Source: Candidatus Micrarchaeota archaeon (GTDB taxonomy: Archaea > Micrarchaeota > Micrarchaeia > Norongarragalinales > SBBD01). From it: a stretch of DNA of 42,704 bases. Positions 2,254-27,575 of this stretch are shown in pieces; position 1 is the first letter of the stretch, and every line of letters begins with the position of its first letter. The translations under genes and the position numbers were made by a program. The stretch spans positions 1-42,704 of the forward strand of contig JBDRLB010000052.1 in NCBI GenBank assembly GCA_043813365.1. The letters run 5' to 3'. The notes under the pieces were generated by a model, which saw only the letters and a program-made list of their open reading frames with translations, ran no database searches and was not told the DNA's origin.

Positions 2254-2883
2254 TTATTTCAGCACTATCCTCGCATCCACAACCGAAAGCTCTTCCTCGC
2301 CCGCAATTACGGGATTGAAGTCCAGCTCAAGTATGTCCTCATTCTGGATGAGCTCGGCCGCTTTGAATACGATCTCGGCCAGTTTTTGCAGGCTCACTTT
2401 CTTCCCCCTGTAGCCCCGGATGAAAGCGGCTGCCTTCGTTTCCATTATGAGCTTCTCGATTTCTTCGGAAGTGATGGGCAGAACGCGCAGGGAGCGTTCC
2501 TTCAGCAGTTCCACGAAAATCCCTCCGAGCCCGAAAACGATCACTTTGCCGAAGCTGGGGTCGTCCTTGCCGCCTATGATGAACTCCACTCCCTCTTTCT
2601 GTTCCTGTAGCAAATACTCTTGAACCTCTAGCCCTGTTGCTGCCTCGTTGAGCACATCGAACTGCTCCCGTAATTCCGATTGCGAATGGATGTTCAGCCT
2701 CACAAGCCCGCGCTCGGTTTTGTGCACTGCTTCCTTGCTTATCAGTTTCAGCACGTAAGGGATCTGCAATTGCTTCGATGCCTTGAGAAGGTCGGGGTAG
2801 CTTTTAGCACGCACGCTTTTTGCGAATGGGATGGAATATTTCCCCATCAGCTCTTCCGCTTCTTCTGGCAAGGCAATGTGCAT
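2254..2883 (-). CDS. acdB: Acetate--CoA ligase (ADP-forming), beta subunit (ATP-grasp)
   Basis: PYVLK, VHKTERG (beta His motif), EFIIG..DPSFG.VIVFGLGGIFVE, ELDFNP, VVDARI. ATG at 2883 preferred over TTG at 2922; ends 9 nt before acdA. Confidence 0.9.
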   Translation of the reverse strand: MHIALPEEAEELMGKYSIPFAKSVRAKSYPDLLKASKQLQIPYVLKLISKEAVHKTERGLVRLNIHSQSELREQFDVLNEAATGLEVQEYLLQEQKEGVEFIIGGKDDPSFGKVIVFGLGGIFVELLKERSLRVLPITSEEIEKLIMETKAAAFIRGYRGKKVSLQKLAEIVFKAAELIQNEDILELDFNPVIAGEEELSVVDARIVLK

Positions 2884-2975
2884 AAATCTCAACTTGGGGA
2901 GGGAATCATCGGCAAAATGCAATTGGCCGAAAAGATTAATGTAGATCCGTATTTGAAGGTTTGCTTTAAAATCGC

Positions 2976-4481
2976 CTAAACGAGGTCGATGATTATCTTC
3001 TCCACTTCGAATATCTTGTTCTTCTGGAGGTTCTGCATCGCGAAATCAAGCTTTGATTGGGAAGTGGAGTAAAGCTCGGCGAGCTCGTCCCCCATCTCGA
3101 TGTTCTCGCCCTTCTTGACCTTAAGCAATACCCCTGCCTTTTTCTCGTTCGGCGCGCCGAGCATCCGGCAGATGCGTGAGAGCGCGCGGTTGTCGATGTG
3201 CGCGATTTTCCCGCGCTCGTCCGCATAAATCTTCGCATGGGTATGGCCGAGAACGATGTCCGAGGATTTGATGTTGGGGTTGCCTCCTTGTGCGGCAATC
3301 ATCTCCTTCATTTTCGCGTAGGCCTTGCCGCTTTGCATCTGCTGCATTGCCACCTTGTAGCCCTCCTGCTGCGAAATCCCGCGCACCATTTGCAGGATTA
3401 TGCCGCACATCTGGCATGCCTTCTCAAAAAGCATGTTATGCTCATTTGTTTCAAATGTTCGAAGCACTTCCCTAGCTTCCAATGCAGGCCCAATGCCATC
3501 CGTTACAGGGGAGGAACCGTCGGAAATGAGGCACTTGATCTTCATATCCAAGCTGGTGCCTAAGCTTTCGAAATCCCGCGCGAGGTTGTGCGCCTCATCC
3601 AGCTTCTCGATTTTTGCGCCTTTCCCGACAGGGATGTCTATGAGCACGTATTGTGCGCCCTCCGCCTTCTTTTTTGCAAGGATGCTTGAAAGCAGGAGCG
3701 CTTTGGGATCCAAACGTAGGGGGTTGCGTATCTTGATTAGCCTGTCGTCCGCACTTGCCAACCTGACTGCGCCGCCCCATACGAGGCATGCGTTCGTTTT
3801 TGCAACTGCAGCCTCAATCTGTGAAACGGAAAGGGAAACGGGTGCGAGCACTTCCATGGTGTCGGCAGTGCCGGAAGCGGAGGAAATTGCGCGAGCTGCT
3901 GTTTTGGGAACCTTTATACCGAGTGAAGAAATTATGGGCACGATCAGCATTGCAACCCTGTCGCCAGCAACTCCGCCGATCGAATGCTCGCTGACAACTA
4001 TGGAATGATTGATCTTCAGCATTTCTCCTGATTCCGCTATTGCATTCGTGAGTGCAACTGTCTCGTCCATGCTTAAACCGTGGATGTAGATTGCGGTGAT
4101 GAATGCCGCAAGTTCAGTGGGGGAAAGGATTTCGTGCATGAGGTCGCGGATTATCGAACCAACCTCTTTCTGCGAGAGTATTTTGCCATCCAGCTTCTTC
4201 TTTATGTAATCTAGGGAAAGGGGGCGCTGGAGCGTTTCAAGCTCGATGATTTCCCCGTTCTGCGCATCCAAAAAAGCGGATACTTCCTGGAAAAGCCCGA
4301 TCTCATTCTCGGAGATCATTTTCTCCGAATGGTCAACAATCGCAACTGCGGTTTTTCCCCTCAGTTTCAGCTGCACGCGGTCGTAAAGCGTGAGGCCTAG
4401 CTCCTGCGCCTTGATCTCGTTCAGCACGACCTCGTTCTGGCCCTGCTCCACCTCGAACACTTTTGCCTTAAGCTGAACCAT
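2976..4481 (-). CDS. AMP phosphorylase / archaeal thymidine phosphorylase family protein (divergent active-site motifs)
   Basis: About 500 aa with the archaeal N-terminal extension, HSIGGVAG, PKTAARAISSASGTAD, WGG, SILAKK, DIPVGKGAK, GIGPALEA and GAP.EKKAG motifs. Confidence 0.88.
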   Translation of the reverse strand: MVQLKAKVFEVEQGQNEVVLNEIKAQELGLTLYDRVQLKLRGKTAVAIVDHSEKMISENEIGLFQEVSAFLDAQNGEIIELETLQRPLSLDYIKKKLDGKILSQKEVGSIIRDLMHEILSPTELAAFITAIYIHGLSMDETVALTNAIAESGEMLKINHSIVVSEHSIGGVAGDRVAMLIVPIISSLGIKVPKTAARAISSASGTADTMEVLAPVSLSVSQIEAAVAKTNACLVWGGAVRLASADDRLIKIRNPLRLDPKALLLSSILAKKKAEGAQYVLIDIPVGKGAKIEKLDEAHNLARDFESLGTSLDMKIKCLISDGSSPVTDGIGPALEAREVLRTFETNEHNMLFEKACQMCGIILQMVRGISQQEGYKVAMQQMQSGKAYAKMKEMIAAQGGNPNIKSSDIVLGHTHAKIYADERGKIAHIDNRALSRICRMLGAPNEKKAGVLLKVKKGENIEMGDELAELYSTSQSKLDFAMQNLQKNKIFEVEKIIIDLV

Positions 4482-4586: not shown

Positions 4587-5264
4587 TCAATACCTCCTGT
4601 TGCTGTAGCCGCCGTAGTTTGGGCGGTCGGAATAGCCGCCCCGGTTGTAGCCGCCGCGGTCCCCATAGCTGCCGTGGCGGTAGTGGCCGGATTCGTCCCC
4701 TTCGGAGCCTTCCTCCCGGGGAGGTATTTTCACGAATAAGTAGTATTTTTCCTCCGCTTTGAGCTCGAGCATTATTCGGTGGAGTACGATCTCCTCTATT
4801 TTCTGCAGGTGGGGCATCCGGTTGTTGATGTCCTCGAATGAAGTGAAAGGAGTAGCCTCCCTTTCTGCAATGAATGCCTCGAGGTTCTTCTTCCCAACCC
4901 CTGGCAAAAGCTCAAGCGAATGGATGCGGATATTTATGCTGCCTGCCCTGTTGAGGAAGCCTACGTAATCCTGCTCATGGTCCGTCAGGATTTTGCGGAT
5001 GACGTTCTCGACTTCGCGTTGGGAAACATTGGTAAGGTCCTTGTAAACAAGCCGCGCCTTTATTCTTTCCACTTTGTCGCGCACGTTCTTCCCGATGTAG
5101 ACTTTCTCGAAAGGCGCTACTACCGCGCCGGGCTTCAGCACCACTTCAAGAAGGGTGAAATAGCTCTCCCCCAAAAGCTGCGCAGTTGGCTCCTGCTTGC
5201 CCTCTCCCGCCTTCCCATGAGGGAGGTAATCAAGAACTAGACCGTACTCTTCCTTCCTGAACAT
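4587..5264 (-). CDS. DUF655 putative RNA-binding protein (HhH) with Gly/Arg/Tyr-rich tail
   Basis: EEYGLVLDYL, AQLLGESYFTLLE, RIHSLELLPGVGKK, PFTSFEDI; conserved position directly downstream of rpoF. Confidence 0.9.
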   Translation of the reverse strand: MFRKEEYGLVLDYLPHGKAGEGKQEPTAQLLGESYFTLLEVVLKPGAVVAPFEKVYIGKNVRDKVERIKARLVYKDLTNVSQREVENVIRKILTDHEQDYVGFLNRAGSINIRIHSLELLPGVGKKNLEAFIAEREATPFTSFEDINNRMPHLQKIEEIVLHRIMLELKAEEKYYLFVKIPPREEGSEGDESGHYRHGSYGDRGGYNRGGYSDRPNYGGYSNRRY

Positions 5265-5270
5265 TTTCGC

Positions 5271-5600
5271 TCACTTCGTATACGGCTTTATGATCTTCGC
5301 AATCTCCTTCACTTTATCCGCTGAAAATTCCAGCTTCTCCTTCGAGAGTATCGTCCTGACGAGATCTTCCTTGCCCGGAAGGAGGTTTACGAGCTCCATG
5401 ATCTGCTTTTCGGAAAGTATGTTCAGCTCCTCGAGCTCCTTTGCGAGCTTCTTCGAATCTTCCTCGGAGAGCTTGGCGAATTTTTCCAGATATTCGAGAG
5501 TGTTCTGCTGCTCATAGCCTAGCTCAGTGTCCTTCTTGCGCTTTTGGAGCAAATCCTTTGCATGTGCGAATGTGACTACCTTTTCCTCGACTACCTTCAT
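5271..5600 (-). CDS. rpoF: DNA-directed RNA polymerase subunit F (Rpo4)
   Basis: ELGYEQQNTLEYLEKFAKL and LVNLLP motifs; 109 aa; synteny between rpl21e and DUF655. Confidence 0.9.
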   Translation of the reverse strand: MKVVEEKVVTFAHAKDLLQKRKKDTELGYEQQNTLEYLEKFAKLSEEDSKKLAKELEELNILSEKQIMELVNLLPGKEDLVRTILSKEKLEFSADKVKEIAKIIKPYTK

Positions 5601-5615
5601 GTGATCACCGTTGAA

Positions 5616-5891
5616 TCATATTTTTACCAAATGCGCGCCGTTAACTACGAGCATCTTGGATTTATTGATGTCCTTGAATTTGATAACTACTGAAGTGCCC
5701 TGCATCCCTACAACATCCCCTGTTTTCTTATTGAAACGGAGGTAGGGCATGCCGTTCTGGAAGCGCGGGTTAATGTCGATGCGCACTTTTTCCCCTGGAG
5801 TGAACTTCCTCAGATGTATCGTTATAGGCAGGCGGCCCTTGCTCTTCAGGTTCCGGCCTTTTCCGGAGTATTTTCCGTGAGATCGTTTCAT
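5616..5891 (-). CDS. rpl21e: 50S ribosomal protein L21e
   Basis: MKRSHG, F.PGEKV.I.I.P, GMP..RF.KKTG.VVG.QG, K.L.V...HL. ATG at 5891 preferred over the TTG start at 5909. Confidence 0.93.
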   Translation of the reverse strand: MKRSHGKYSGKGRNLKSKGRLPITIHLRKFTPGEKVRIDINPRFQNGMPYLRFNKKTGDVVGMQGTSVVIKFKDINKSKMLVVNGAHLVKI

Positions 5892-6092
5892 TAGTACCAC
5901 TCTCTGCAAATTATAGAAACCACAATCTACTGCTGTGACCCCCTGCTGCTTCAGAATCAGCGAATGTTTGGTGATTTAAAGCAATATAAAGCTATCTTTT
6001 TTGATCGTGATTTGAAGCGCAGCCACACCTACCTGATTGAAAGATGCAACACGTGATGCATAATTCATACATAAATAGCTAAAAAACGAACA

Positions 6093-6681: not shown

Positions 6682-6786
6682 AGGGGAAAGGGCGAGGAAG
6701 ATGCGGATCCTTTGACCGATTCGCAAGGCAAATTAAAGGGGGAGCGTGCGATCCGCACAAGGGGGAATATTCCCCCGCCGCGGATG

Positions 6787-6804
6787 TTTATAAAGCTTTA
6801 TAAA
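6787..6804. promoter_or_regulatory. Perfect 18-bp palindrome TTTATAAAGCTTTATAAA (two TATA boxes)
   Basis: The sequence equals its own reverse complement; each half is a consensus archaeal TTTATAAA box; it lies upstream of the half-TBP gene. Confidence 0.7.
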
Positions 6805-6860
6805 TCCCCCAAGAGTTAAGCTTAAATACCTGTTTTGGATAAAAAGGGGGCGATCTTTGA

Positions 6861-7154
6861 ATGAAGAAGGGAAAGAAAAGGCGCAAGATTAACATGTCCT
6901 TCAAGGTGGAGAACATCGTCGCATCCGCCAATCTGGAGGTGGAGCTGGACCTATTCAACATTGCAATGGAAGTCGACAACGTGGAGTACGAGCCGGAACA
7001 GTTCCCGGGCGCAATAATGCGCTTGAAGGAGATCGGCACCACTTTGCTGCTTTTCAAGAATGGGAAGGTCATCTGCTCTGGAGCGAAGAGCGAGAAGCAG
7101 ATCGAGCAGTCAATAAAGAGGGCTGTTGAGCTTCTTGAGGACTTCATTAACTAA
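6861..7154 (+). CDS. Single-repeat TATA-box-binding protein-like protein
   Basis: KVENIVASA, LDL..IA, EYEPEQFPG, LLLFKNGKVICSGAKS make one complete TBP repeat; only 97 aa (86 aa from ATG 6894); SD-like GGGGGCGAT upstream of 6861. Confidence 0.9.
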   Translation: MKKGKKRRKINMSFKVENIVASANLEVELDLFNIAMEVDNVEYEPEQFPGAIMRLKEIGTTLLLFKNGKVICSGAKSEKQIEQSIKRAVELLEDFIN

Positions 7155-7164
7155 AGTGATCATC

Positions 7165-7347
7165 ATGGCAATCAGCAAAACGGGAGTTGCATCCCTCCTG
7201 CTCGGGATATTTTTGGTGGCGGTTACGGCTTACTTCGGCTTCCCGGGCGCAACACTTTGGGCAATCATCGGCTCGACGATTCTCGGCGGCCTCATGCTGC
7301 TCGGATTGTTCCTGATGCTGATCGGCGCGCTCATGCTCGTGATCTGA
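7165..7347 (+). CDS. Small 2-TM membrane protein (60 aa)
   Basis: MAISKTG followed by two long hydrophobic helices; ATG 10 nt after the half-TBP stop with GTGAT SD-like motif. Confidence 0.7.
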   Translation: MAISKTGVASLLLGIFLVAVTAYFGFPGATLWAIIGSTILGGLMLLGLFLMLIGALMLVI

Positions 7348-16144: not shown

Positions 16145-16319
16145 AAGCAGTTTACACTCTTCCCGAGTTTTTTAATCTTTCTATGGAAAAAACAGAAAAT
16201 GGCGGCGGTTGGGGGAAAGGGATTGCATGGAAGGCGTTTCAGTTTAACAGGCATAGTTTGGCGCACTTCGGGTCAGCACAACCTTTTTGAATTGCGCCTT
16301 CGTGAGGTTAGTGAACCCT

Positions 16320-19181
16320 ATGAATCTGCGGGAAACGCTCGAGCGCGCAAAGGCCGAGAAGAAGGCGGCTGCGAAGGAGGAAACGCCCCAAGTCGCCCCT
16401 AAGCAGGAGGAAGGCAAGCCGGAAAGGATATTGGTGGAAAGCTATAGGGACGTGCGCATCTACAAGGAGTCCTCAGAGCCGCTTTACCTTTATGAAATAC
16501 CGTCCCCCCATTTGAAAGGGGAAGAAAGGGGGCTAATCAACACGCTTTTGGAGATAACAACGGGCGTGATGTCGGAAAGGGAGAGCCAGAGCCTCAGCAA
16601 GGAGGAGGTCAAGGCGAAGTACCTCAAGAAGGTGCTCGAGATAATTGAGAACACGCCAGAGCTGAAGATCCCGATCCATGCAAAGCAGTTCTATGCGGAG
16701 GCTGTTGTGAAGGAGATGGCTGGGTATGGCATAATCGACCCATTGATCGAGGACGATATGCTCGAGGAAATCATGATCATCGGGCCGGGCAAGCCCGTTT
16801 ACGTATTCCACCGGAAATACGAGATGATGAAAACAAACATCGTTTTCTACGAGGACAAGGATTTGCTCAATTTGATAGACAAGATGGCCAGGACGGTGGG
16901 AAGGCGCATCGACATTCAGTCGCCATTGCTCGATGCCCGGCTTCCGGACGGCTCGAGGGTAAATGCGACCATCCCGCCCGCTTCGATAAACGGCGCAACC
17001 CTGACCCTTAGGAAATTCCGCAAGGATCCGTTCACCGTCATAGACCTGATAAAGTACGGCACCATGGATTTCGACATTGCCGCATTCCTTTGGGTCATTT
17101 CGGACGGATTCGGGGCGCTGCCTGCAAACATACTCGTTTCTGGAGGGACAGCTTCGGGGAAAACTTCGACCCTGAATGTGCTCGCATCATTCATCCCGAC
17201 TGATGAGAGGATCATCTCGATAGAGGACACCGCAGAATTGGCGCTTCCCCTTGATCATTGGATAAGGATGGAAACGCGGCCTGCTTCAGTGGAGAACGCC
17301 GGGGAAATATCCATGGATACGTTGGTGAAAAATTCGCTCAGGATGAGGCCCGACAGGATAGTCGTTGGGGAAATCAGGGGCCAGGAAGGATTCACGCTAT
17401 TCACTGCCATGAATACTGGGCACAGGGGGGCTGTGAAGGGAGAGGCGAGGGTGCAGCTTGCCGATGGGAATTTGCCCCGGATGGCAGATTTTGCAGGCAA
17501 ATATTTTGCAGGGAAAAAGGAGATGGAGGAGGACGGTTTCGAATTTGTTGAAACCTGCGGGGAGGAGTGCGCGATCAGCTTCAACAAAAAAACGCTTGAT
17601 CTTGAGCCTAAAAGGATAACCCGCGTTTGGAGGAAAAAAACAAAGGAGAAAATGGTTGAAATCACGTTCAAATCCGGCAAAAGAATCACGCTTACACTGG
17701 ACCACCCTACATATAAGGCGTACGAAGGGATACAGGAAATTGGGGCGGGGGACATCACGGCGGGGGATTTCTTGGGGATCCCTTCAGTTATTGAAACTGA
17801 GCCAAAAAACAACGCCATTCTATCTCCGTATTTCGCGGGGCTGGTTTATGGGGATGGCTACATAGACAGAAATGCGATACAATTCGTGAACGCAAAACCC
17901 GGGCTCGTGGATGAATTTGAATCTGAGCTTTCGAAACTGACAAAACATAAAATCACGCATCTGGATTACCCGGCATATCAAAGGGCGGAAGTATGGGATA
18001 GGGAATTGACTAAAAAATTGAAGGCTGAATACGATGTGCCTTTTGGGAACAAGACAAAAATTTTCGAACTAAATGAAAAACTGCTCACTTCGGGGAACCA
18101 GGAAATTTCGGAGTTCCTTAAGGGGATGTTCGATTGTGATGGCTGGGCAAACATTCACTCGGGTTCCGTATGCCTATCCACTTCAAACTCCGAATTTGCA
18201 AAAATTTGCCCCATGCTGCTTTCCAGGTTCGGGATAGCTAGCAGCACTTATACCGCACACAGGGACGGAAAAGGGAATGCTGGGCCGTATTTCACCATCA
18301 GCATTTATGGGAAGGAAAACCTCGAAAAATTTGGGGAAAATATCGGCTTTAGGCACAAATTGAAGATGAAAAATTTGGATGAGGTGATTTCCGCCTCAGG
18401 GCACTCGTATGATCTGGTTCCGAATCTTGCCAGAACGCTCAGGAATGCCAGGCTTGAAGCGGGCTTCACACAGGCGCAATTGGGAAAACGCATCGGGAAC
18501 ACAACAAGGTCCGTGGTTGAGGCGTATGAAACCGGCAAACGCCAGCCTACAAGAAGGATGCTCAAGAGGATAACAGAAATGCTCTCCAATAAAACTGCAA
18601 TCCAGCTGAAAATGCTTGCGGATGCAAAAATAAGGTGGGAAGAGGTCGTTTCCGTAGAAATCGGGGAACATGAAGGCTACGTTTACGATTTGACAGTTGA
18701 GGACAACCACACATACGTTGCAGACGGGATCATTGTGTCAAATTGCCTCGGAACAGTCCATGCAAATTCCGCCCACGAAACCCTAATAAGGCTGCAGAGC
18801 CCGCCGATAATGGTGCCGCCCATAATGGTGGGCGCATTGAACTTCATCATTATGCAGCACCGTTTGCACGACAGGAGGAAAGGGGTCATCAGGAGGATAA
18901 CGGAAATCGCGGAAGTGTCCCAAGATGAGACCGAGCAGCCGAAGCTGCAAATCCTTTACCAATGGGATGCCGCAAAGGACCTGATGCAGCCTACGGGCAT
19001 ACCCTCGAATTTCATCCAGATGCTCGCGACATTCACCGGCTTGAAGAAGGAGGACATTTACGAGGAGATCGAGAACCGCAAGAAGATCCTGATGGATTTG
19101 AGTGCCAGGGGGGTGCGCGACCTGGAAGAGGTGTGCAAAATCACCCAAACCTATGTCCTCAAAAAGCGCGGGAAAATCTAA
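16320..19181 (+). CDS. Type IV pilus / Tad (TadA/CpaF/KlbA-like) assembly ATPase, intein-containing
   Basis: [25 protein letters not shown], Walker [32 protein letters not shown], His box MNTGH...TVHANS split by the intein. ATG 16320 preferred over TTG 16287. Confidence 0.95.
17430..18743 (+). mobile_element. Class 2 (Ala1, KlbA-type) intein, 438 aa, with LAGLIDADG homing endonuclease and XRE-type HTH
   Basis: Junctions [13 protein letters not shown] and [13 protein letters not shown]; block B TLDHP; block F VYDLTV; endonuclease motifs FAGLVYGDG and [10 protein letters not shown]. Confidence 0.93.
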
Positions 19182-19376: not shown

Positions 19377-20522
19377 ATGGCAGATGAAGAGAAGACCAGC
19401 AAGCTCTCGAACCTAAAGGAGCAGATCGAGAAAACCGAGGTATCGAAGGAGGAGAAGCCGGTTGACATCAAGGAACGGGATGTAAATGAAATAATCCGCA
19501 GGCTGAAGGAGAAGGAGGAAAAGCCGGTAATTACGAACATCAATGAGCGCATCGTGAACATCAAGGAACGGGTGGAGGGCTCCGGAGGCGCGATAAAATT
19601 CGGGATGCGCGACCTCTCCGTGATGCAAGCGGACATTTCCACGATGTCAACCAAAGGGCTTACGCTGATCGGCGGGGTTTACAACTATTTCCGCGGACCG
19701 CTAACTTCACTTACAAACATGATCGCAAGCATCCCTCTCTCCCAGGGATTGAAGGAAAATCTCGAATCCGCAGGGATCAAGTGGTCGCCCGAGGAATACC
19801 TGGTTATCATTTCAACTGCCGCAACGCTTGTGTTCGTCATCGTGCTGATGCTTTTCGGGAGTATTTCTGGCGGCCTCGGAGATGTTTCCCTCCTTGCGCT
19901 CTCGCCGTTCATTGCCATAATCGCATTCATGACTACCCTTATAATCGGGTTCATCTACCCGTCGGCAATGGCGAACGAACGCGCCTCGAAATTGAACCGC
20001 GAGCTTCCTTTTGCGTTAAGGCAGCTTGCAACCCAGGTGAAGGCGGGAGTAAGCTTCCACAAGGCTATGAATTCCATTGTAAATTCAAGGTACGGCGCAT
20101 TGAGCGAAGAATTCAAGAAGGTTTTGAATGACATAGACAAGGGAAGCAGCACGGAGCAGGCTTTGCTGAAGCTGGCTGCAAGGACGAAGAGCCGTGGGCT
20201 GAAGAAGGCGATCGTGCAAATATTGCGGGCATTGAAGAGCGGAGGCAACCTTTCCGAAACAATAACGGCAATTGCGGATGATGTGTCCTTCGAATTGAGG
20301 ATGAAGGTCAGGGATTTCACGGAGAAGCTGAATTTCATTTCCGTCATCTACATCATGATCGGGGTTGTTGGGCCGGTAGTGATGGTGATATTGTCCTCAA
20401 TTGCACAGCTGCCCCTCATAGGCGGGAATTTCCCGTTCGAATATATAGTACTGGCATTCTTGGGGATTACTGTAGTCATGATAATGCTGCTGTTCATAAT
20501 CAAGCGCATGGAACCGGCGTGA
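19377..20522 (+). CDS. Type II secretion system F-family (TadB/TadC/ArlJ-like) platform protein
   Basis: ELPFALRQLA..VKAG, YGALSEEF, ALKSGGNL, multiple TM helices; follows the ATPase. Confidence 0.9.
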   Translation: MADEEKTSKLSNLKEQIEKTEVSKEEKPVDIKERDVNEIIRRLKEKEEKPVITNINERIVNIKERVEGSGGAIKFGMRDLSVMQADISTMSTKGLTLIGGVYNYFRGPLTSLTNMIASIPLSQGLKENLESAGIKWSPEEYLVIISTAATLVFVIVLMLFGSISGGLGDVSLLALSPFIAIIAFMTTLIIGFIYPSAMANERASKLNRELPFALRQLATQVKAGVSFHKAMNSIVNSRYGALSEEFKKVLNDIDKGSSTEQALLKLAARTKSRGLKKAIVQILRALKSGGNLSETITAIADDVSFELRMKVRDFTEKLNFISVIYIMIGVVGPVVMVILSSIAQLPLIGGNFPFEYIVLAFLGITVVMIMLLFIIKRMEPA

Positions 20523-20526
20523 TAAA

Positions 20527-21423
20527 ATGGCATTAAGAGAGCAATACGAAAAGATGCGGAGGTATTACAACGCTGTAGGGATACGCCTGCCGTTCCCGGC
20601 ATTCATTGCAGGGATATTCATACTTTCCGTGTTCGCTGGCATCTCGCTTTTCGTATTCTTCAATGATTTGCTTACCGCATTCATCGGCTTTGTCGCATTC
20701 CTTACGCTTGCCATTGTCGTTCCAGTGAGCATACGGAGCCAGCGTGTTGAGAATGTCGAAACTAACCTTCCGGATGCGCTGAAACACATGGCCGCAATCC
20801 TCCGCGCAGGCGGCACTACTGAGGATGCCCTTGAAGAAGTGGGCAATTCCGATTACGGCCCGCTCAGCGCGGACATCAAGCAGGGGCTGCTGGAATTGAA
20901 GGAAGGGAAACCCTTCGACGAGGTGCTGCAGGATATTGCTTTGCAAACAGGGTCTCCGCTTTTCAGGAGAACTGTAACCATTATCGTGGACGCGAAGCGC
21001 GCCGGCGCCGGGCTTGCGGACGTCATGGAATCAATTGCGGATGACGCGCGTGACATGATTCGCATCCAGAGGGAACGTGCCTCCAGGACGACGATGCCGG
21101 TGCTGTTCCTATACATTTCATCCCTTGCACTTGCGCCCTTCATATTCGGATTCACGCTTACTATAGTGTGCTTCATCGGAAGCGGCATGACAACCGCGCT
21201 TGGCGGGGCAGGGCTCGAAATAGGCAATCTGAAGGCGCTAGTCGTAATATTCATCGGCATCCAGTCCACCATTGCAATAATGGCAATAGGCATCATCAAG
21301 GAGGGAAGGCCGATCAAGTACCTGCCGCGCGTGCCATTCATGATCCTGATCTCGCTGATCGTTTACAATATGGGCCTTATCATCGGCGGGTTGCTTATAG
21401 GGAGCAGCGTGCAGTGCAATTGA
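20527..21423 (+). CDS. Second T2SSF-family platform protein
   Basis: VETNLPDALKHMA..LRAG, DYGPLS, AKRAGAGLADVM, TM helices; 4 nt after the previous gene. Confidence 0.9.
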   Translation: MALREQYEKMRRYYNAVGIRLPFPAFIAGIFILSVFAGISLFVFFNDLLTAFIGFVAFLTLAIVVPVSIRSQRVENVETNLPDALKHMAAILRAGGTTEDALEEVGNSDYGPLSADIKQGLLELKEGKPFDEVLQDIALQTGSPLFRRTVTIIVDAKRAGAGLADVMESIADDARDMIRIQRERASRTTMPVLFLYISSLALAPFIFGFTLTIVCFIGSGMTTALGGAGLEIGNLKALVVIFIGIQSTIAIMAIGIIKEGRPIKYLPRVPFMILISLIVYNMGLIIGGLLIGSSVQCN

Positions 21424-22832: not shown

Positions 22833-24686
22833 TTAGCGTTTTTTGCCGTGCTTCTTCGATGGAGCAGCTGATTTTGCCGCCTTCTTTGGGGCGGAAGGCA
22901 GCTTCACCATCTTTTGCGGTTTTTCCTCCTCGGAATCAAACAGGCTGTTCCCCTTCATAAGGTGCAGGGGCTCCTCTTCGAACAGCGGCTTTACACTCGG
23001 CAGCTCCTTCCTGATTTTTTCAATTTTCTTGTGCACGGAGTCGTTGGTGAAAGGCACGGGCTTATTGCGCACCTTGATTTCCGGCTGGGGCATGTCTTTC
23101 ATTGCACCCTTATTATTTTCTTTTTTGGGTTTTGCCGCCTTTGTTTTTTCGGCCTTTTTCTGGGCAATGCCTTTTTCGGGTTTTTTAACTTCCTTTTTGG
23201 GTTCGCGGTCGTCGGAGATTGTTTTGAGCGCGGCCTTCATCTCCATGAGCTTCGAATGGAGCCGCTGCAGCTTTGCCTCGGTTGAAAGCGTCTTGATGAT
23301 TTCCTTCTTCGCGTCCTCAAAAGTGGGCTCCGGCTCGGCTGCTGGCTGTTCGATTTTCTTCGGATCATCACGGTGCTCTATCACTACGAATGACTTGTCT
23401 CCCGAGGGTATTGACGATTCCGCGCCCTCATTCATACCTGCGCGCTTCTTTACAATCTTTTGCATCTGCGGGGATATCTTTTGGATCGCAGGCGGTTCCT
23501 CAGCGATGTCGCTTTCCGAATAAGAGGGTCCGGGTATTTCGTTCCTCTCCTGCGCTTTGGGCTGCTCCATAATTTGGGACTTCGCAATCGGGTTCGCTGG
23601 CTTTAGAATTGGCTTCTCAGCTGAAGGCATCTGGGGTTTTTGCGGCATGTTGGAAGGAGGTTTTTTGCCCCGGATTATGCTGGAGAGCCTCGATCGGACG
23701 TCATCCTCCGGTTCGGCTTCCGCAATGGGTGCCTCCGCATTTTCCACTTCGTCATATTGTGAAAGCTTCTGCTCAAAATTCTCTATCTCCTGTGTAACCG
23801 AAGGCTGGTTTTCCATCTCGATCGCGCTCGCCATTGCAGGGTCTTCCGCAATTCTTTCAATGGAGGTCTCAATTGCCTCCGCACTGTCCGCCTGCCCGAC
23901 CTTTTCCTCGAGAATTGCAATGGGCGGCTTGTTCGACCTGAAAGGCTGGGGGAGGAACCTATCCGTTGCAAGCCTCAGGCGCTTGAGGATGCCCGGCTTC
24001 TTGACGGGCTTATCGGCTGCGATTATTTCCTCCGCCTGTTGGGGAATTGCTTCGGCTGCAATCCGCATCGGCATTTTTGAGGGAGGCATCTCCTTCTTGC
24101 TGGGTTCCTGCTCGGCCCTTTGGTGCATTGCAGGATGGATGGGCTTCACTTTCGCCTCCTCTTCCTGCCAATCCCTTTCCGGGGAGAGCTGATCGGATTC
24201 GAAACGAGATTCCATGGAAGGCTGTGGCTTCCAGTCGTAATTGAAGCTTTTCATGCCGCTTGTCTTGAAGTTTGATTGCGCAAGCCCCTGGAAATATTTC
24301 TTGTTCACGGTTTCCTTCAGGGATTTTTGCGCCTGCCTAAGTTCCCGGAGGGCGGAATTTATCTCCCTCCGCTCCTTATCAATTGTTTCCTCCTCCGCTT
24401 TGAGCAGCTGGACGTTCCGCTTGTGGGAATTCTGGCGCGCCTCAAGCTCGGAGAGCGCCCTTACGACTGTTGCCTGCTCCTGCAATATTTCCTGCATAGC
24501 TGATTCGAGGTATGTCCGCTGCGAATCCAGCCGCTCCATTTCGCTTTCAACGTCATCACGGACCTTCTCGAGTTCCGTGTCGATTTGCAGCGACTTGCGC
24601 CTTATTGCGACAACGGCCCGCTCTGCGTTTTTCGCCTCAAGATCCAGCTCCAGCAGGCCCTTCAGACGAGGTTTCGGAATCTCCAT
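22833..24686 (-). CDS. Hypothetical protein: N-terminal coiled coil plus long P/E/K-rich low-complexity region
   Basis: 617-aa ORF, GGGGGATGA SD-like motif upstream, heptad pattern in the first ~130 aa, no TM or signal peptide. Confidence 0.8.
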   Translation of the reverse strand: MEIPKPRLKGLLELDLEAKNAERAVVAIRRKSLQIDTELEKVRDDVESEMERLDSQRTYLESAMQEILQEQATVVRALSELEARQNSHKRNVQLLKAEEETIDKERREINSALRELRQAQKSLKETVNKKYFQGLAQSNFKTSGMKSFNYDWKPQPSMESRFESDQLSPERDWQEEEAKVKPIHPAMHQRAEQEPSKKEMPPSKMPMRIAAEAIPQQAEEIIAADKPVKKPGILKRLRLATDRFLPQPFRSNKPPIAILEEKVGQADSAEAIETSIERIAEDPAMASAIEMENQPSVTQEIENFEQKLSQYDEVENAEAPIAEAEPEDDVRSRLSSIIRGKKPPSNMPQKPQMPSAEKPILKPANPIAKSQIMEQPKAQERNEIPGPSYSESDIAEEPPAIQKISPQMQKIVKKRAGMNEGAESSIPSGDKSFVVIEHRDDPKKIEQPAAEPEPTFEDAKKEIIKTLSTEAKLQRLHSKLMEMKAALKTISDDREPKKEVKKPEKGIAQKKAEKTKAAKPKKENNKGAMKDMPQPEIKVRNKPVPFTNDSVHKKIEKIRKELPSVKPLFEEEPLHLMKGNSLFDSEEEKPQKMVKLPSAPKKAAKSAAPSKKHGKKR

Positions 24687-24740: not shown

Positions 24741-27575
24741 TCAATTCTTCAAGTTTGCCCTGTTCACCGCTTTTGTGATTTTTATGAACGGCACCCCCTG
24801 CGAGTCCTTTGCGATTGCCCCCTGGATCACCACCTGACCTTTTACGGGCGCAGTGAATACGCCGTAGATTGTGCCGCTCTCGTCCTCAAGCTTGATCATC
24901 GATTGCGTGGCGCCTTTCCTCACTGTAGAGGCGTTCGCAGTGATCAATACCCTCTTCCCCTCTGCCGCAGACTTCACCAAATCATAGATGCGCTGCTTAG
25001 AGGATAAAGGTTTTTCCGTTTTTAAGCTTAATGCAGGCGGCTTTGCGGCTGTTTTTTGCGATGGCAAGGATCCGGCAAGTTGGGGGGCCTGTGTGATTGC
25101 GCCTTTCGGTTGCCGCATGCCCTGTTTTGATGCCGGGCCTTTCATCTGGGAAGGCGAGGTTTTTTTCGGGCCCGTTTTTGAAGCTGGCTGCGGAATTTCA
25201 GGCTCCTCTGCGTCCGCCTCCTGCTCTTCGGGATTTTCCTCGGACTCCTGCAGCTCGTCCTCAAGCCGGGAGGTTTCCTCTGCCTGCTCGATCTGCTCAT
25301 CCCCCACATTCCCTTCTATCTCCTGCTCCTCCAGGGGTGCCTGATCGGAAGGTTCTGCTCCGGCGGGCATCTGGGGCGTCCTTGGCAATGGAGCGGTTTT
25401 CATCGGCGCAGCTACTTTTGCATTCCTCTTTGGTGCCCCAATAGGTTCTAGGTTTTGTGCGTCCGTTGAGATTGCATTTGCAGGTTCGCTTCCTTCAGCA
25501 CCTTCAACGGGAGTTTCCTCTACCATCTGGGAAATTTCCTCGGTGCGCTTTGTTTGCACAACGCGTTCCTTGCGCACCTTCATCAGCTCGTCGCGCAATT
25601 TCTGCCTTATTGTCTGCAATTTCTTTGCATGCGTCGCCTTGATGCGCTTGTACTCATCCTCCTTGATCTGGCCTTCGATGTATTCCTCCTCGTTGCTTTC
25701 AAGTATCTGCTCAAGCGCCTCCTTTTCCTCCTGCAAATCTGAAATATGCGGCGGCATCTCGTCCCCTTGCGTTGCTAATTCAAGTTTTGTTTGCAGTTCG
25801 TTTATCATGAGCCGTGCATCCTCGACATCCTTCTTCAGGCCCGCCATGTCTTCGCGCGACACGTAATTGTCCAGCTTGCCGCTCATGGATTCGGTCATGT
25901 TCACTAGCTCTTTCAGCGATTCGGCAAGTATGTCCTGCTTCCCGCGGTAAAGCGTGAACTCGTTGAGCTTGCGGTTAAGCTCCACATAAACCCTTCCAGT
26001 CTCATCCGCCAGCCGCTCCACCTTGGAGACGGTATTGTCAATTTTAGAGCTGCGGTCGGCGATGTCCTTGCTTACTGTTGCGATGTTCTTCAGGCTTCCT
26101 ATGGCATCAAGCATGCCCCTGACACGGTTGAGGTTTTGACCCATGTCCCCGGTCATGGTCTCCATTTTCTCCAAGCGGAATGCCGCATCAGAGATCTGGC
26201 GGTCGCGTTTATCCAGCTCCTTGGCGAACCGCTGCGGCTCAAGGTCCGAAACCATCTCAATGAACTTGTCCAGCTTGGCCTCCTGCTCTTTGGTTGAGCT
26301 TTCCTTTTCGAACAGCATGGTCCGCAATTCCCCGATGCTCTCCCGGATTTGCTCGATGCGTTCCTCCATGACTGACCGCGAGCCTTCAGTGGATTCCACC
26401 TTCACTTTCAGCTTTTCTATCTCCAGCACGATCTTGGCCATTTCCGCTGCTGACATCCCGCTTTCCTCCCCGCCCCCTCCCCGGGTTGTCGGAAGCAATG
26501 GGGACGATTCCTCCTGCTGGGGCGCATTGCCGGATGAATCTGCGGCCCTGTCCGTCTGTGCCTTGTTGTATTCCGCCAGTTCTTCGGGCGTCATTTCCTC
26601 CGGAAGCTTGTCTGCCCACGAGGGCGCGCCTCCCGATTGCGCCGGTGCACTGCCGGATTGGGGAGCTGGAGAGGCTCCTTTTGCAGTTGCTGCCGATGCA
26701 GCCGGCTTTTGTTCTCCCTTGTTCAATTTGCCCATTATTCCTCCTAACATAGATCCCGACCTTTTTTCAGTTTCATTTGACGGATCTGCGGGGGGTTTGA
26801 AATCAAAATCCCTTTGCGGTTCGCGGGTTTTCTTCGGGTTAACGTTCAACGAGCGCATAATATCCGATGCGGGGTCGTCATATGGAAGCGTGGGCTCCTG
26901 TGGTTTTGCGGAGAATTTTGCAAGCCTTTCCTTGAAGGAGATGGGCTTGATAGCTGGCTCCGGTGAAATGTCCGGCAATGGCGCTTCTGCAAATTCATTT
27001 TCAGGGAGGCCGGAAATGGACCCTTCGGGTTCGGGGGAATCTTCAAGTTCATCCGCCTCAATTCGATCCTCCAATCTTGCCCTCCTTGGAATGGTTGGCT
27101 CCGAGAATTTTTCATACAGCCCCGAGGGCGATTCCACTTCTGTGCTCTCGCCGGAATAGCCTCCGGAGATCAGCCGGTTGATGCGCGAAAGCTTCTTGGT
27201 GTTCTCGACCTTCAGCTCGCTGTAGCTTTTTTCCGAAATCGCTCCCTCATTGTATGAATCCTCAAGGAAGGAAAGGAGGGATTCGATGTCATGCTTGTTC
27301 TTCTGCAGCTTTTCCTTCTTTCCCGCAAGCCTGTCATCGTAGTCTTCGGTTTCCTCCTCGGACTCGAGCTTCCTCAGGTTATCGAGGTTGCGGAGTGCCG
27401 CAGTTCGCTCGCTGTTGTAAAGATCAGGGGAAATGGTGCCAGTTTTGTAGGAATGCCCGAGGAAGGAGAGCAGTGCAAGGATGCCCTTCTCCAGGTTTTG
27501 CAGGTCCGCAGCTGGCGCTGGTGCGGATCCCTGCGAAGTGCCTTTTCTGGAAGGGATTTTTTTCACATGACTCAC
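24741..27575 (-). CDS. Hypothetical large cytoplasmic coiled-coil protein with three SHOCT-like motifs and a putative C-terminal OB fold
   Basis: 944-aa ORF, central ~300-aa coiled coil, repeated Y..G.I....Y motif, beta-rich C-terminus (IKLEDESGTI). GTG start uncertain (27575 or 27566). Confidence 0.82.
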   Translation of the reverse strand: MSHVKKIPSRKGTSQGSAPAPAADLQNLEKGILALLSFLGHSYKTGTISPDLYNSERTAALRNLDNLRKLESEEETEDYDDRLAGKKEKLQKNKHDIESLLSFLEDSYNEGAISEKSYSELKVENTKKLSRINRLISGGYSGESTEVESPSGLYEKFSEPTIPRRARLEDRIEADELEDSPEPEGSISGLPENEFAEAPLPDISPEPAIKPISFKERLAKFSAKPQEPTLPYDDPASDIMRSLNVNPKKTREPQRDFDFKPPADPSNETEKRSGSMLGGIMGKLNKGEQKPAASAATAKGASPAPQSGSAPAQSGGAPSWADKLPEEMTPEELAEYNKAQTDRAADSSGNAPQQEESSPLLPTTRGGGGEESGMSAAEMAKIVLEIEKLKVKVESTEGSRSVMEERIEQIRESIGELRTMLFEKESSTKEQEAKLDKFIEMVSDLEPQRFAKELDKRDRQISDAAFRLEKMETMTGDMGQNLNRVRGMLDAIGSLKNIATVSKDIADRSSKIDNTVSKVERLADETGRVYVELNRKLNEFTLYRGKQDILAESLKELVNMTESMSGKLDNYVSREDMAGLKKDVEDARLMINELQTKLELATQGDEMPPHISDLQEEKEALEQILESNEEEYIEGQIKEDEYKRIKATHAKKLQTIRQKLRDELMKVRKERVVQTKRTEEISQMVEETPVEGAEGSEPANAISTDAQNLEPIGAPKRNAKVAAPMKTAPLPRTPQMPAGAEPSDQAPLEEQEIEGNVGDEQIEQAEETSRLEDELQESEENPEEQEADAEEPEIPQPASKTGPKKTSPSQMKGPASKQGMRQPKGAITQAPQLAGSLPSQKTAAKPPALSLKTEKPLSSKQRIYDLVKSAAEGKRVLITANASTVRKGATQSMIKLEDESGTIYGVFTAPVKGQVVIQGAIAKDSQGVPFIKITKAVNRANLKN

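What the first reader, a model, noticed from the sequence alone, without database searches (positions are those of the whole stretch)
6861..7154. Stand-alone half-TBP: one TBP repeat with intact DNA-contact motifs
Seen: a 97-aa ORF with exactly one TBP repeat, retaining the Asn of ENIV, both intercalating Phe positions (EQFPG, LLLF) and the acidic EPE stirrup, plus a basic N-terminal tail (MKKGKKRRK). It has promoter and SD-like signals, a clean stop and an unrelated gene 10 nt downstream, with no visible second-repeat remnant. Known: canonical TBP is ~180 aa with two repeats, thought to derive from duplication of a single-repeat ancestor. Inference: a homodimeric, symmetric TBP-like factor with two potential TFB-binding stirrups, or a competitor of canonical TBP.
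Basis: partly seen in the sequence, partly recalled or inferred. Interest (0 to 1): 0.78.

Follow-up and report, generated by a model that had tools for sequence, protein, structure and literature searches.

The report
Half-size TATA-binding protein, sole copy
This small archaeon and its whole order carry only one lobe of the normally two-lobed TATA-binding protein, at the usual gene position and under very strong selection, so two identical copies probably pair to start transcription, which gives a living test of how this universal factor arose.

Summary
ORF 6861..7154 (+) encodes 97 aa with exactly one TBP repeat (Pfam PF00352, 99.2 bits). A stop codon lies directly before the ATG, and an unrelated gene starts 10 nt after the stop.

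It is not an accessory paralogue. It is the only TBP-domain gene in this 1.34-Mb Micrarchaeota genome and in 36 of 40 genomes of the same order. It sits at the DUF655-Rpo4-L21e locus, where other families of the class keep a fused two-repeat tbp. Selection is extreme: 100% amino-acid identity against 84% nucleotide identity within the genus.

A homodimer model passes its controls (0.66 against 0.01). The interface is the central strand S1, which I recall to be the inter-repeat seam of canonical TBP.

Profiles that separate N from C repeats (231 of 246 correct) score this protein as neither.

Best reading (0.78): the organism's sole TBP, working as an exactly symmetric homodimer, with TFB/BRE setting polarity.

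No paper describing this was found. This scan has noted the same thing at least 8 times on other genomes.

The parts
6861..7154 (+). CDS of the single-repeat TBP (97 aa plus TAA stop)
   Evidence: ORF. Pfam TBP 99.2 bits as one stretch. Only TBP-domain hit in the genome.
6861..6896 (+). Basic N-terminal tail (aa 1-12, MKKGKKRRKINM)
   Evidence: K/R-rich but variable in sequence across 55 family members. pLDDT is low at residues 1-4. Residues 8 and 10-13 fall in the predicted dimer interface.
6897..7145 (+). TBP repeat (S1-H1-S2-S3-S4-S5-H2), aa 13-95
   Evidence: Profile positions 1-85 of 85. AF2 model pLDDT 88.3. rmsd 0.8-0.9 A to one lobe of 1mp9 and 2z8u.
6787..6804 (+). Two copies of the palindromic TATA-like box TTTATAAA (6787-6794 and 6797-6804)
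   Evidence: Sequence. A TTTATAAA box recurs upstream of tbp in 6 of the 10 own-order loci inspected. Function not tested.
6821..6828 (+). CTTAAATA, the TATA-like box nearest the start codon (starts at -40)
   Evidence: Sequence. TTTAAATA is the most enriched upstream 8-mer in the genome (35 seen against 2.6 expected).
5616..5909 (-). Ribosomal protein L21e gene, divergent neighbour and synteny marker of the tbp locus
   Evidence: Pfam L21e. Found beside tbp in 9 of 11 fused-TBP loci and 5 of 5 own-order loci.
5271..5600 (-). RNA polymerase subunit Rpo4/F gene (synteny marker)
   Evidence: Pfam RNA_pol_Rpb4. Found beside tbp in 9 of 11 fused-TBP loci and 5 of 5 own-order loci.
4587..5264 (-). 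DUF655 gene (synteny marker)
   Evidence: Pfam DUF655, 189 bits. Found beside tbp in 11 of 11 fused-TBP loci and 5 of 5 own-order loci.
7165..7347 (+). 60-aa hydrophobic protein gene 10 nt downstream, possibly co-transcribed
   Evidence: Conserved directly downstream of tbp in 6 loci of family f1 at 44-58% identity. Not found beyond the family.

Best explanation
This gene is the organism's only TATA-binding protein. It encodes one TBP lobe, and I propose the following mechanism.

1. Two copies pair through their central S1 strands and H2 helices. This builds the usual ten-stranded DNA-binding saddle, here with exact rather than approximate two-fold symmetry (predicted).
2. Each subunit supplies one pair of kinking phenylalanines (F48, F65), the central minor-groove residues (N18, V20, S73) and one acidic stirrup (E44-P45-E46) (inferred from homology).
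3. The dimer binds TATA boxes, which lie about 29 nt upstream of start codons (inferred).
4. The single TFB docks on one of the two identical stirrups. Promoter polarity comes from TFB's contact with the BRE, as already holds for archaeal TBP in general (established knowledge applied here).
5. The basic N-terminal tail may add DNA-backbone contacts or stabilise the dimer (speculative).

The one-lobe gene replaced the fused gene at the same locus in or before the common ancestor of the order, which is probably Norongarragalinales by the names on close homologues. Since then it has evolved under constraints that make it neither an N-type nor a C-type repeat.
For: **Sole copy**
- PF00352 finds one place in G000 (1.34 Mb, 88.6% complete).
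- phmmer --max on the six-frame translation finds nothing else below E 4.3.
- In the order, 36 of 40 genomes have exactly one strong TBP-domain place, in open frames of 97-182 aa. The only other hits are two sub-threshold ones of 19.5 and 18.9 bits in G025 and G013, which each also have a strong place.
- hmmsearch on the fetched own-order loci shows one domain per ORF.
- Of the 4 genomes with no hit, G002, G023 and G014 also lack the DUF655 neighbour. In G036 the DUF655 neighbour sits on a short contig fragment (locus reaches C112 position 4011), so the tbp side may simply not be assembled.

**Orthologous locus**
- DUF655, Rpo4 and L21e flank the fused two-repeat tbp in other families: 11, 9 and 9 of 11 loci.
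- They flank the single tbp in 5 of 5 own-order loci.

**Selection**
- Same genus (G001): 100% aa identity over 85 codons at 84% nt identity, dS 1.39, dN/dS about 0.03.
- Against another family (G015), the TBP core is 92% identical, while L21e is 47%, Rpo4 50% and DUF655 56%.
- 52 positions are invariant in 55 sequences.

**Fold.** AF2 pLDDT is 88.3. The model superposes on one lobe of S. acidocaldarius and M. jannaschii TBP at 0.8-0.9 A over 75-80 residues.

**Dimer**
- The two-copy model scores 0.66 (runs 0.66, 0.65, 0.68) against a best control of 0.01.
- The runs share at least 97% of their contacts, and partner pLDDT is at least 86.
- The mark was reached by 20 of 30 proteins solved as homo-pairs and by 1 of 23 solved as single chains.
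- The interface is residues 8, 10-27, 70-72, 78-89 and 96, with residue 19 pairing with residue 19 of the other copy.

**Symmetry**
- N- and C-repeat profiles classify 231 of 246 repeats correctly in cross-validation, with median differences of +8.7 and -9.7 bits.
- The 24 own-order singles score -2.5 to +1.2 bits.
- Both lobes of the top PDB TBPs match about equally: 67.4 and 64.0 bits for 2z8u, 66.4 and 61.7 for 1mp9. For 1ais the values are 54.1 and 65.4 bits.

**Partners.** The genome has one TFB gene with two cyclin repeats and one TFE-alpha gene.

**Promoters.** The AT-rich peak starts 28-31 nt before start codons in two single-TBP genomes and two fused-TBP genomes alike.

**Literature.** Passages of PMC6640164 state that archaeal TBP binds the TATA box symmetrically and that TFB sets the orientation, citing Cox 1997 and Bell 1999.
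Against: - **No experiment and no expression data.** No RNA run holds the stretch.
- **The dimer model may pass from memory.** Solved two-lobe TBP structures could explain the pass, as the tool itself warns. My own alignment was used, so the calibration counts hold only roughly.
- **Assembly quality.** All genomes of the order are metagenome-assembled and 68-97% complete. None was shown to be closed. A canonical tbp that is systematically unassembled is very unlikely but not excluded.
- **A diverged partner could be missed.** A second TBP-fold protein too diverged for sequence searches would not have been detected.
- **A predicted correlate was not seen.** TATA-window 8-mers are no more palindromic than chance (7.7% against 6.25% expected). 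They are no more palindromic than in a relative with a fused TBP (10.2% in G117).
- **The residue roles are recalled.** The mapping of F48, F65, N18, V20 and S73 to the DNA-contact residues of yeast or archaeal TBP rests on my memory of the structures plus the alignments. It is not a test run here.
Confidence: 0.78

Rival explanations
1. The half-TBP works as a heterodimer with a second, highly diverged TBP-fold protein that sequence searches cannot recognise. The saddle would then be asymmetric after all.
For: Other families of the class (f13, parts of f14 and f17) carry two or three unlinked single-repeat TBP genes, so hetero-pairing of separate lobes probably exists in the class. Brindefalk 2013 (PMC3597702, passages read) reports very diverged ~95-aa TBP-domain proteins in Thermococcales.
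Against: No second TBP-domain hit was found in G000, even at E up to 100, or in 36 of 40 order genomes at E 0.01. The extra copies in f13, f14 and f17 are easily detected (87-128 bits), so a partner of that kind would have been seen. The homodimer model passes its controls. The extreme conservation and the N/C-neutral profile score fit one chain having to serve both positions.
Confidence: 0.06
2. It is an accessory factor or competitor, acting beside a canonical two-repeat TBP encoded elsewhere in the genome. This would resemble halobacterial TbpA.
For: G000 is only 88.6% complete. Single-domain TBP paralogues beside full TBPs are known in Halobacteria and Thermococcales (PMC3597702).
Against: No fused TBP was found in any of the 36 order genomes that have the locus, including genomes of 5-20 contigs. 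The gene occupies the orthologous tbp locus. It is far more conserved than its ribosomal and RNAP neighbours.
Confidence: 0.03
3. The single lobe no longer acts as a general TATA-binding factor. It has another role, such as monomeric nucleic-acid binding or regulation, and initiation in these organisms relies on TFB alone or on an unknown factor.
For: Single TBP domains serve other functions in RNase HIII and DNA glycosylases (PMC3597702, abstract and passages). No binding data exist for this protein.
Against: All residues that I recall as TBP's DNA-kinking, minor-groove and stirrup residues are invariant. AT-rich boxes stay at the canonical distance from gene starts, as in relatives with a fused TBP. 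One normal TFB is present. The protein is 40-44% identical to canonical archaeal TBP lobes.
Confidence: 0.1
4. It is an artefact or a decaying remnant: assembly collapse of two repeats, or a recent truncation.
For: Tandem repeats can collapse in short-read assemblies.
Against: The same architecture appears in 36 independent genomes across 10 families of the order (f1-f5 and f7-f11). dN/dS is about 0.03, with saturated synonymous change. The repeats of fused relatives are only 44-73% identical in protein, too different to collapse. Contig pieces from public runs are identical to the window and bridge the stop codon into the next gene: X1 record 1 (6951-7167) and X4 record 14 (6974-7176). These may come from the source sample, so they count as weak support.
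Confidence: 0.01

Closest known systems
Canonical archaeal TBP (two PF00352 repeats in one chain of about 180-190 aa; e.g. PDB 2z8u M. jannaschii, 1mp9 S. acidocaldarius, 1ais/1pcz P. woesei)
   Same: It has the same repeat fold (rmsd 0.8-0.9 A). Sequence identity to either lobe is 40-44%. The motifs ENIV, EYEPEQFPG and LLLFxxGK are shared. It sits at the same chromosomal locus as the fused tbp of sister families. The predicted dimer seam lies on strand S1, which I recall to be the pseudo-dyad seam of the fused protein.
   Different: It has one repeat per chain, not two, so the saddle must form between chains and is exactly symmetric. It has a basic N-terminal tail. It scores as neither N- nor C-type. 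It shows much lower divergence than the fused forms, seen as short branches.
Halobacterial TbpA-type single-domain TBP paralogues (Brindefalk et al. 2013, PMC3597702, passages read)
   Same: It is a stand-alone single TBP domain whose sequence is close to genuine TBP repeats.
   Different: According to the paper's passages, TbpA coexists with full-length TBPs and is not essential. Here no full-length TBP was found in the genome or the order. The gene also sits at the tbp locus.
Thermococcales monopartite TBP-domain proteins (~91-97 aa, e.g. the P. furiosus entry in Table 3 of PMC3597702)
   Same: It has a similar length (about 95 aa) and a single TBP-fold domain encoded as its own gene.
   Different: Those proteins are strongly diverged from TBP (a separate cluster in that paper) and always accompany a normal TBP. 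This protein scores 99 bits on the TBP profile and stands alone. I did not compare the sequences directly.
Fused two-repeat TBPs of other Micrarchaeia families and of Diapherotrites
   Same: They are 55-60% identical to the half-TBP and sit at the same locus. Basic Lys-rich tails are common among them.
   Different: They are two repeats in one chain. Their repeats are unusually alike (44-73% in the fetched loci, up to 91% in metagenome proteins). Most carry little N/C signature.

Membership tests
TBP family (Pfam PF00352 repeat) | Sequence match to the TBP repeat profile above the curated cut-off | tested here: met
   99.2 bits against a cut-off of 22.9, covering profile positions 1-85 of 85. 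98.7 bits in the genome search.
TBP family (Pfam PF00352 repeat) | Fold of one TBP lobe (S1-H1-S2-S3-S4-S5-H2) | tested here: met
   AF2 model pLDDT 88.3, with strands and helices in that order. Foldseek gives 1mp9 rmsd 0.8 A over 80 columns and 2z8u rmsd 0.9 A, with 44 PDB hits at E <= 0.001. This is a predicted model, not a solved structure.
Canonical TBP (general transcription factor) | Two tandem repeats in a single polypeptide forming a pseudo-symmetric saddle | tested here: not met
   One stretch only. TGA lies directly before the ATG and an unrelated gene starts 10 nt after the stop. No second repeat was found anywhere in the genome.
Canonical TBP (general transcription factor) | Conserved DNA-kinking Phe pair, central Asn/Val and acidic stirrup in each repeat | tested here: met
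   F48, F65, N18, V20, E44, P45 and E46 are invariant in 55 sequences and align with the same motifs in both lobes of 2z8u, 1mp9 and 1ais. The functional roles of these positions are recalled, not tested.
Canonical TBP (general transcription factor) | Encoded at the orthologous tbp locus of the lineage | tested here: met
   DUF655, Rpo4 and L21e lie beside the fused tbp in 11, 9 and 9 of 11 loci of other families, and beside the single tbp in 5 of 5 own-order loci.
Canonical TBP (general transcription factor) | Binds and bends TATA DNA and recruits TFB | not testable with these tools
   Only indirect evidence exists: one TFB gene is present, and AT-rich boxes lie at the usual distance from starts.
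Obligate homodimer forming the saddle | Two copies associate through the S1/H2 seam | tested here: inconclusive
   The model supports it: 0.66 against a best control of 0.01. The mark was reached by 20 of 30 solved homo-pairs and 1 of 23 single chains. The pass may reflect memory of fused TBP structures, so this is not a measurement.
Accessory monopartite TBP-domain proteins (TbpA / Thermococcales type) | Coexists with a full-length TBP in the same genome | tested here: not met
   No full-length TBP was found in G000 or in 36 of 40 genomes of the order. All genomes are incomplete MAGs.

The most novel reading that the evidence does not exclude
The one-lobe gene may be the parent form within Micrarchaeia rather than just a reduced TBP. 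On this reading the class cycles between single, duplicated-unlinked and re-fused TBP genes. The fused TBPs of sister families would then have arisen again by tandem duplication of a single lobe, replaying the origin of TBP. These observations fit that reading:

- N and C repeats of fused Micrarchaeia TBPs are 44-73% identical to each other.
- Most of these repeats carry no N/C signature.
- They cluster by lineage rather than by position in the protein.
- One metagenomic fused TBP (P0129, repeats 91% identical) has both repeats inside a clade of single-lobe genes of family f20.

Gene conversion between repeats is the conventional alternative and is not excluded.
Probability: 0.25. Interest if true: 0.9.

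Novelty: new variant of a known kind. Interest (0 to 1): 0.8.

Why it matters
- **A textbook assumption becomes testable.** TBP is held to be a fused internal duplication of a lobe that once worked as a homodimer. No organism has been reported to run its transcription on the unfused form. An entire archaeal order that does so would make that ancestral state directly testable.
- **Questions it opens.** Does an exactly symmetric saddle bind TATA? How does a single TFB choose a side? Does it raise bidirectional initiation? What did the fusion add?
- **Comparison material within one class.** Sister lineages of the same class carry fused genes or two to three unlinked lobes.
- **A practical consequence.** Annotation pipelines label many of these genes 'hypothetical protein'. 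Surveys that count TBP as present hide the architecture.

Tried and rejected
- **Symmetric-promoter test.** I expected a homodimeric TBP to go with more palindromic TATA boxes.
  - AT-only 8-mers in the -46..-17 window are palindromic in 7.7% of 881 occurrences in G000, against 6.25% expected by chance.
  - The other genomes gave 1.4% (single-TBP G015, only 71 occurrences), 4.6% (fused G097) and 10.2% (fused G117).
  - There is no support. Gene starts were crude ORF calls. A seeded PWM and an anchored profile show a near-symmetric S-TTTWWAAA-S box with only a weak A-rich upstream flank, which is descriptive only.
- **Which repeat was kept.**
  - A repeat tree (86 columns, quick search, SH-aLRT only) did not separate N from C.
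  - No alignment column discriminates them among the class's fused TBPs; the minimum overlap is 0.25.
  - Profile scoring says 'neither'.
  - The question is unresolved. An unequal crossover between the repeats, giving a hybrid lobe, is possible but not shown.
- **Direction of change.** A tree of the three neighbour genes (390 columns, unrooted) lets the fused genomes sit on one side of a branch, but support is only 51. No outgroup was included.
- **Expression.** No RNA holder was listed.
- **Contigs of public runs.** They cover the stretch only in low-depth fragments, and no piece spans it.
- **Two close two-repeat relatives.**
  - P0122 (77% identity, on a 1.2-kb contig) looks like an assembly chimera of a half-TBP and a Diapherotrites-type TBP, so I did not use it.
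  - P0123 (202 aa, 72% identity) has an N repeat that groups with the order's singles. It lies on a 1.3-kb contig of unknown taxon.
- **NG86 rows.** Those for L087 and L003 are off by one codon and were ignored.
- **Supplements.** I did not open the supplementary tables of the DPANN comparative papers (PMC8407392 and the bioRxiv preprint 2021.01.12.426361). They may list TBP lengths.

Full report
**What is there.** The window holds an ORF at 6861..7154 on the + strand (ATG to TAA, 97 aa).
- The codon just before the ATG is TGA. A six-frame scan lists the open frame as exactly 6861-7151, so the protein cannot extend at its N-terminus.
- Pfam's TBP model (PF00352) matches once, at aa 13-95, over the full profile (1-85 of 85). 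The score is 99.2 bits against a cut-off of 22.9.
- Against PDB sequences the protein matches both lobes of archaeal TBPs almost equally: M. jannaschii 2z8u 67.4 and 64.0 bits, S. acidocaldarius 1mp9 66.4 and 61.7, P. woesei 1ais 54.1 and 65.4.
They are invariant in an alignment of the window protein with 54 short family members, which I hand-picked from the 120 listed.
- The basic N-terminal tail varies in sequence but is always K/R-rich.
- The next gene, a 60-aa hydrophobic protein, starts at 7165, 10 nt after the stop.

**Whose genome it is.** The window is contig C52 of a 1.34-Mb, 78-contig, 88.6%-complete genome. Sources name the close homologues (81-96% identity, mostly 95-116 aa) Candidatus Micrarchaeota, Micrarchaeia or Norongarragalinales archaeon. 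Many carry only the label 'hypothetical protein'. I infer a DPANN archaeon of class Micrarchaeia, probably order Norongarragalinales. That name comes from homologues, not from this genome.

**It is the only TBP.**
- PF00352 finds one place in the genome.
- phmmer with all filters off, using the half-TBP and a two-repeat Diapherotrites TBP as queries against every six-frame segment of at least 25 aa, finds only this ORF. The next hits have E 4.3 and 0.95.
- Across 40 genomes of the same order (11 families, 28 genera, G000 included), 36 have exactly one strong TBP-domain place. Each lies in an open frame of 97-182 aa. The only further hits are two sub-threshold ones (19.5 and 18.9 bits) in G025 and G013, in frames of 1340 and 283 aa; those two genomes each also have a strong place.
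- A family HMM run on the fetched own-order loci shows one domain per ORF. The 182-aa frame of G010 is just a long stop-to-stop frame with the domain at its end.
- Of the four genomes without a hit, G002, G023 and G014 also lack the neighbouring DUF655 gene, so the locus is simply not in those assemblies. In G036 the DUF655 gene sits on a short contig fragment, so the tbp side may not be assembled.
- One TFB gene with two cyclin repeats and one TFE-alpha gene are present.

**It sits at the tbp locus.**
- In the window, DUF655 (4587-5264), Rpo4/F (5271-5600) and L21e (5616-5909) lie on the minus strand, divergent from the TBP gene.
- I fetched 10-kb stretches around the fused two-repeat TBP genes of eight other families of the class (11 loci). 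DUF655 lies beside tbp in 11 of 11, Rpo4 in 9 of 11 and L21e in 9 of 11. All three lie beside the single-repeat gene in 5 of 5 own-order loci.
- This confirms independently what earlier agents of this scan noted on other genomes.
Within the order the single repeat is fixed.

**Selection.**
- Against a genome of the same genus (G001), the 85 core codons are 100% identical in protein and 84% in DNA. dS is 1.39 and dN/dS about 0.03.
- Against another family of the order (G015), the core is 92% identical. The neighbours are 47% (L21e), 50% (Rpo4) and 56% (DUF655) identical.
- Within the genus, the downstream small protein is 58% and the M54 peptidase 56% identical.
- In the 50%-identity representative library, the order's proteins appear in the top 150 as a single representative, P0054.
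- This is one of the most constrained genes of these genomes, which rules out decay or artefact.

**Structure and pairing.**
- The monomer model (AlphaFold2, 55-row alignment) has mean pLDDT 88.3, with the order S1-H1-S2-S3-S4-S5-H2. It superposes on single lobes of 1mp9 and 2z8u at 0.8-0.9 A over 75-80 residues.
- A two-copy model scored 0.66 (runs 0.66, 0.65, 0.68) against a best control of 0.01. The runs share at least 97% of their contacts, and partner pLDDT is at least 86. The mark was reached by 20 of 30 proteins solved as homo-pairs and 1 of 23 solved as single chains.
- The interface is residues 8, 10-27, 70-72, 78-89 and 96. Strand S1 pairs antiparallel with its mate, with residue 19 against residue 19.
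- From memory of the TBP structures, this is the seam between the two lobes of the fused protein, at the centre of the ten-stranded sheet. It is not the saddle-to-saddle dimer of full TBPs.
- The tool warns that such a pass may come from likeness to solved structures. It shows compatibility, not binding.

**Neither N nor C.**
- I built separate profiles of N and C repeats from 123 two-repeat TBPs among the 50%-identity representatives. In four-fold cross-validation they classify 231 of 246 repeats correctly, with median score differences of +8.7 and -9.7 bits.
- The 24 own-order single repeats score between -2.5 and +1.2 bits, which is neutral.
- No column separates N from C among the class's fused TBPs, and trees of repeats do not resolve the matter. 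Which repeat survived is therefore open.
- A neutral score fits either a hybrid lobe from an unequal crossover or long evolution under the need to serve both positions.

**A wider pattern in the class.**
- In 151 genomes at least 85% complete, all of one class, 148 have TBP-domain hits. This count includes G066, an unpublished genome of family f13, so the f13 tallies may not be published without its depositors' permission.
- Three architectures occur (verified on fetched loci).
  - Fused genes of 188-223 aa occur in families f12, f15, f16, f18, f19, f21, f24 and f25.
  - One single gene occurs in the own order, f20, f22, f23, 15 of 25 f14 genomes and 3 of 6 f17 genomes.
  - Two or three unlinked single genes occur in f13, for example G060 and G070. 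In f14 they occur in G057, G078, G085 and G155, and in f17 in G136, G150 and G170.
- Where there are several singles, one sits at the conserved locus and the others elsewhere. Loci showing this are L062, L065, L067, L070, L073 and L076.
- The fused TBPs of the class have unusually similar repeats. Identity is 44-73% in 12 loci and up to 91% in metagenome proteins, although that list was ranked by likeness to my query. Most carry little N/C signature.
- A tree of the three neighbour genes (390 columns, unrooted, quick search) recovers the own order (99) and f13+f14 (100). It lets all fused genomes lie on one side of a branch, but with support of only 51.
- Parsimony with fused TBPs in other archaea favours loss of one repeat. 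Re-fusion from a single lobe is not excluded (see the section on the most novel reading).

**Promoters.**
- AT-only 6-mers peak 28-31 nt before predicted start codons in two single-TBP genomes (G000, G015) and two fused-TBP genomes (G097, G117) alike. Promoter geometry therefore looks ordinary, and most mRNAs are probably leaderless.
- TTTAAATA is the most enriched upstream 8-mer, with 35 seen against 2.6 expected.
- My prediction that a homodimer would go with more palindromic boxes failed.
- Upstream of tbp itself lie two palindromic TTTATAAA boxes and CTTAAATA. A TTTATAAA box recurs upstream of tbp in 6 of the 10 own-order loci inspected.
- Passages of PMC6640164 state that archaeal TBP binds the TATA box symmetrically and that TFB sets the direction (Cox 1997 and Bell 1999, cited there; I did not read those papers). 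This is why an exactly symmetric TBP is plausible in an archaeon.

**What is known.**
- Brindefalk et al. 2013 (PMC3597702; abstract and passages read) describe single-domain TBP proteins: halobacterial TbpA and about 95-aa proteins of Thermococcales. Both are found beside a full TBP. The paper discusses a monomeric ancestor.
- Two DPANN comparative papers simply count TBP as present (PMC8407392; bioRxiv 2021.01.12.426361; passages only).
- Six full-text searches found no paper reporting a single-repeat TBP as the only TBP of an organism or clade. Subscription journals and supplements were not searched.
- This scan has flagged the same family at least 8 times on other genomes. My tests agree with those notes.

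**Verdict.** This is a real, strongly selected, order-wide single-lobe TBP that replaces the fused gene at its own locus. It most likely works as a symmetric homodimer with TFB/BRE giving polarity (confidence 0.78). The gene, its uniqueness, its locus and its selection are shown. The fold and the dimer are predicted. DNA binding, TFB recruitment and the role of the basic tail are inferred.

Noticed in passing
window 27601-42699 (-): Giant ORF of at least 5033 aa that starts only 5 nt from the window's end, so it may begin beyond the window. It has Ig-like (Big_7) and NPCBM-associated domains, and a HerA/DUF87-type ATPase segment near residue 4660. It is preceded by two further large ORFs without Pfam hits (22836-24686 and 24744-27575).
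   Followed up: no
window 16287-19178 (+): PilB/T2SSE-type ATPase gene interrupted by an intein carrying LAGLIDADG and HTH domains. Two T2SSF (PilC-like) genes follow at 19377-21420.
   Followed up: no
window 6761-6776: Perfect 16-nt palindrome GGGGGAATATTCCCCC, just upstream of the two TTTATAAA boxes of the tbp promoter. It is not seen in the upstream regions of the 9 relatives printed.
   Followed up: partly
L061/L062 (G060), L063/L064 (G070), L065/L066 (G057), L067/L068 (G085), L070-L072 (G136), L073/L074 (G150): Other families of the class carry two or three unlinked single-repeat TBP genes. One is at the conserved DUF655-Rpo4-L21e locus and the rest lie elsewhere. In G150 two lie 1 kb apart on one contig. 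They are probably hetero-pairing lobes.
   Followed up: partly
proteins P0129, P0127, P0130, P0124 and others; P0137, P0140: Metagenomic two-repeat TBPs whose repeats are 82-91% identical to each other, pointing to recent duplication or gene conversion. Some DPANN TBPs also have Lys/Ala/Pro-rich C-terminal tails of more than 130 aa. P0121 has three repeats (283 aa).
   Followed up: partly
L078 (G167 contig C43, 8.4 kb), 2712-3266: A family f13 genome with single-lobe genes also holds a very divergent fused TBP with a strong canonical N/C signature (+12.6 and -13.1 bits) and very long branches. It could be a contaminant, a mobile element or a viral TBP.
   Followed up: no
window 7165-7347 (+): A 60-aa hydrophobic protein gene 10 nt after tbp. 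It is conserved in that position in 6 loci of family f1 at 44-58% identity and may be co-transcribed with tbp.
   Followed up: partly
L011, L015, L017, L019, L083-L086 upstream of tbp: tbp promoters in the order tend to carry two TATA-like boxes 10-25 nt apart. The first is often CTTTATAAA. This may be a dual or autoregulated promoter.
   Followed up: no
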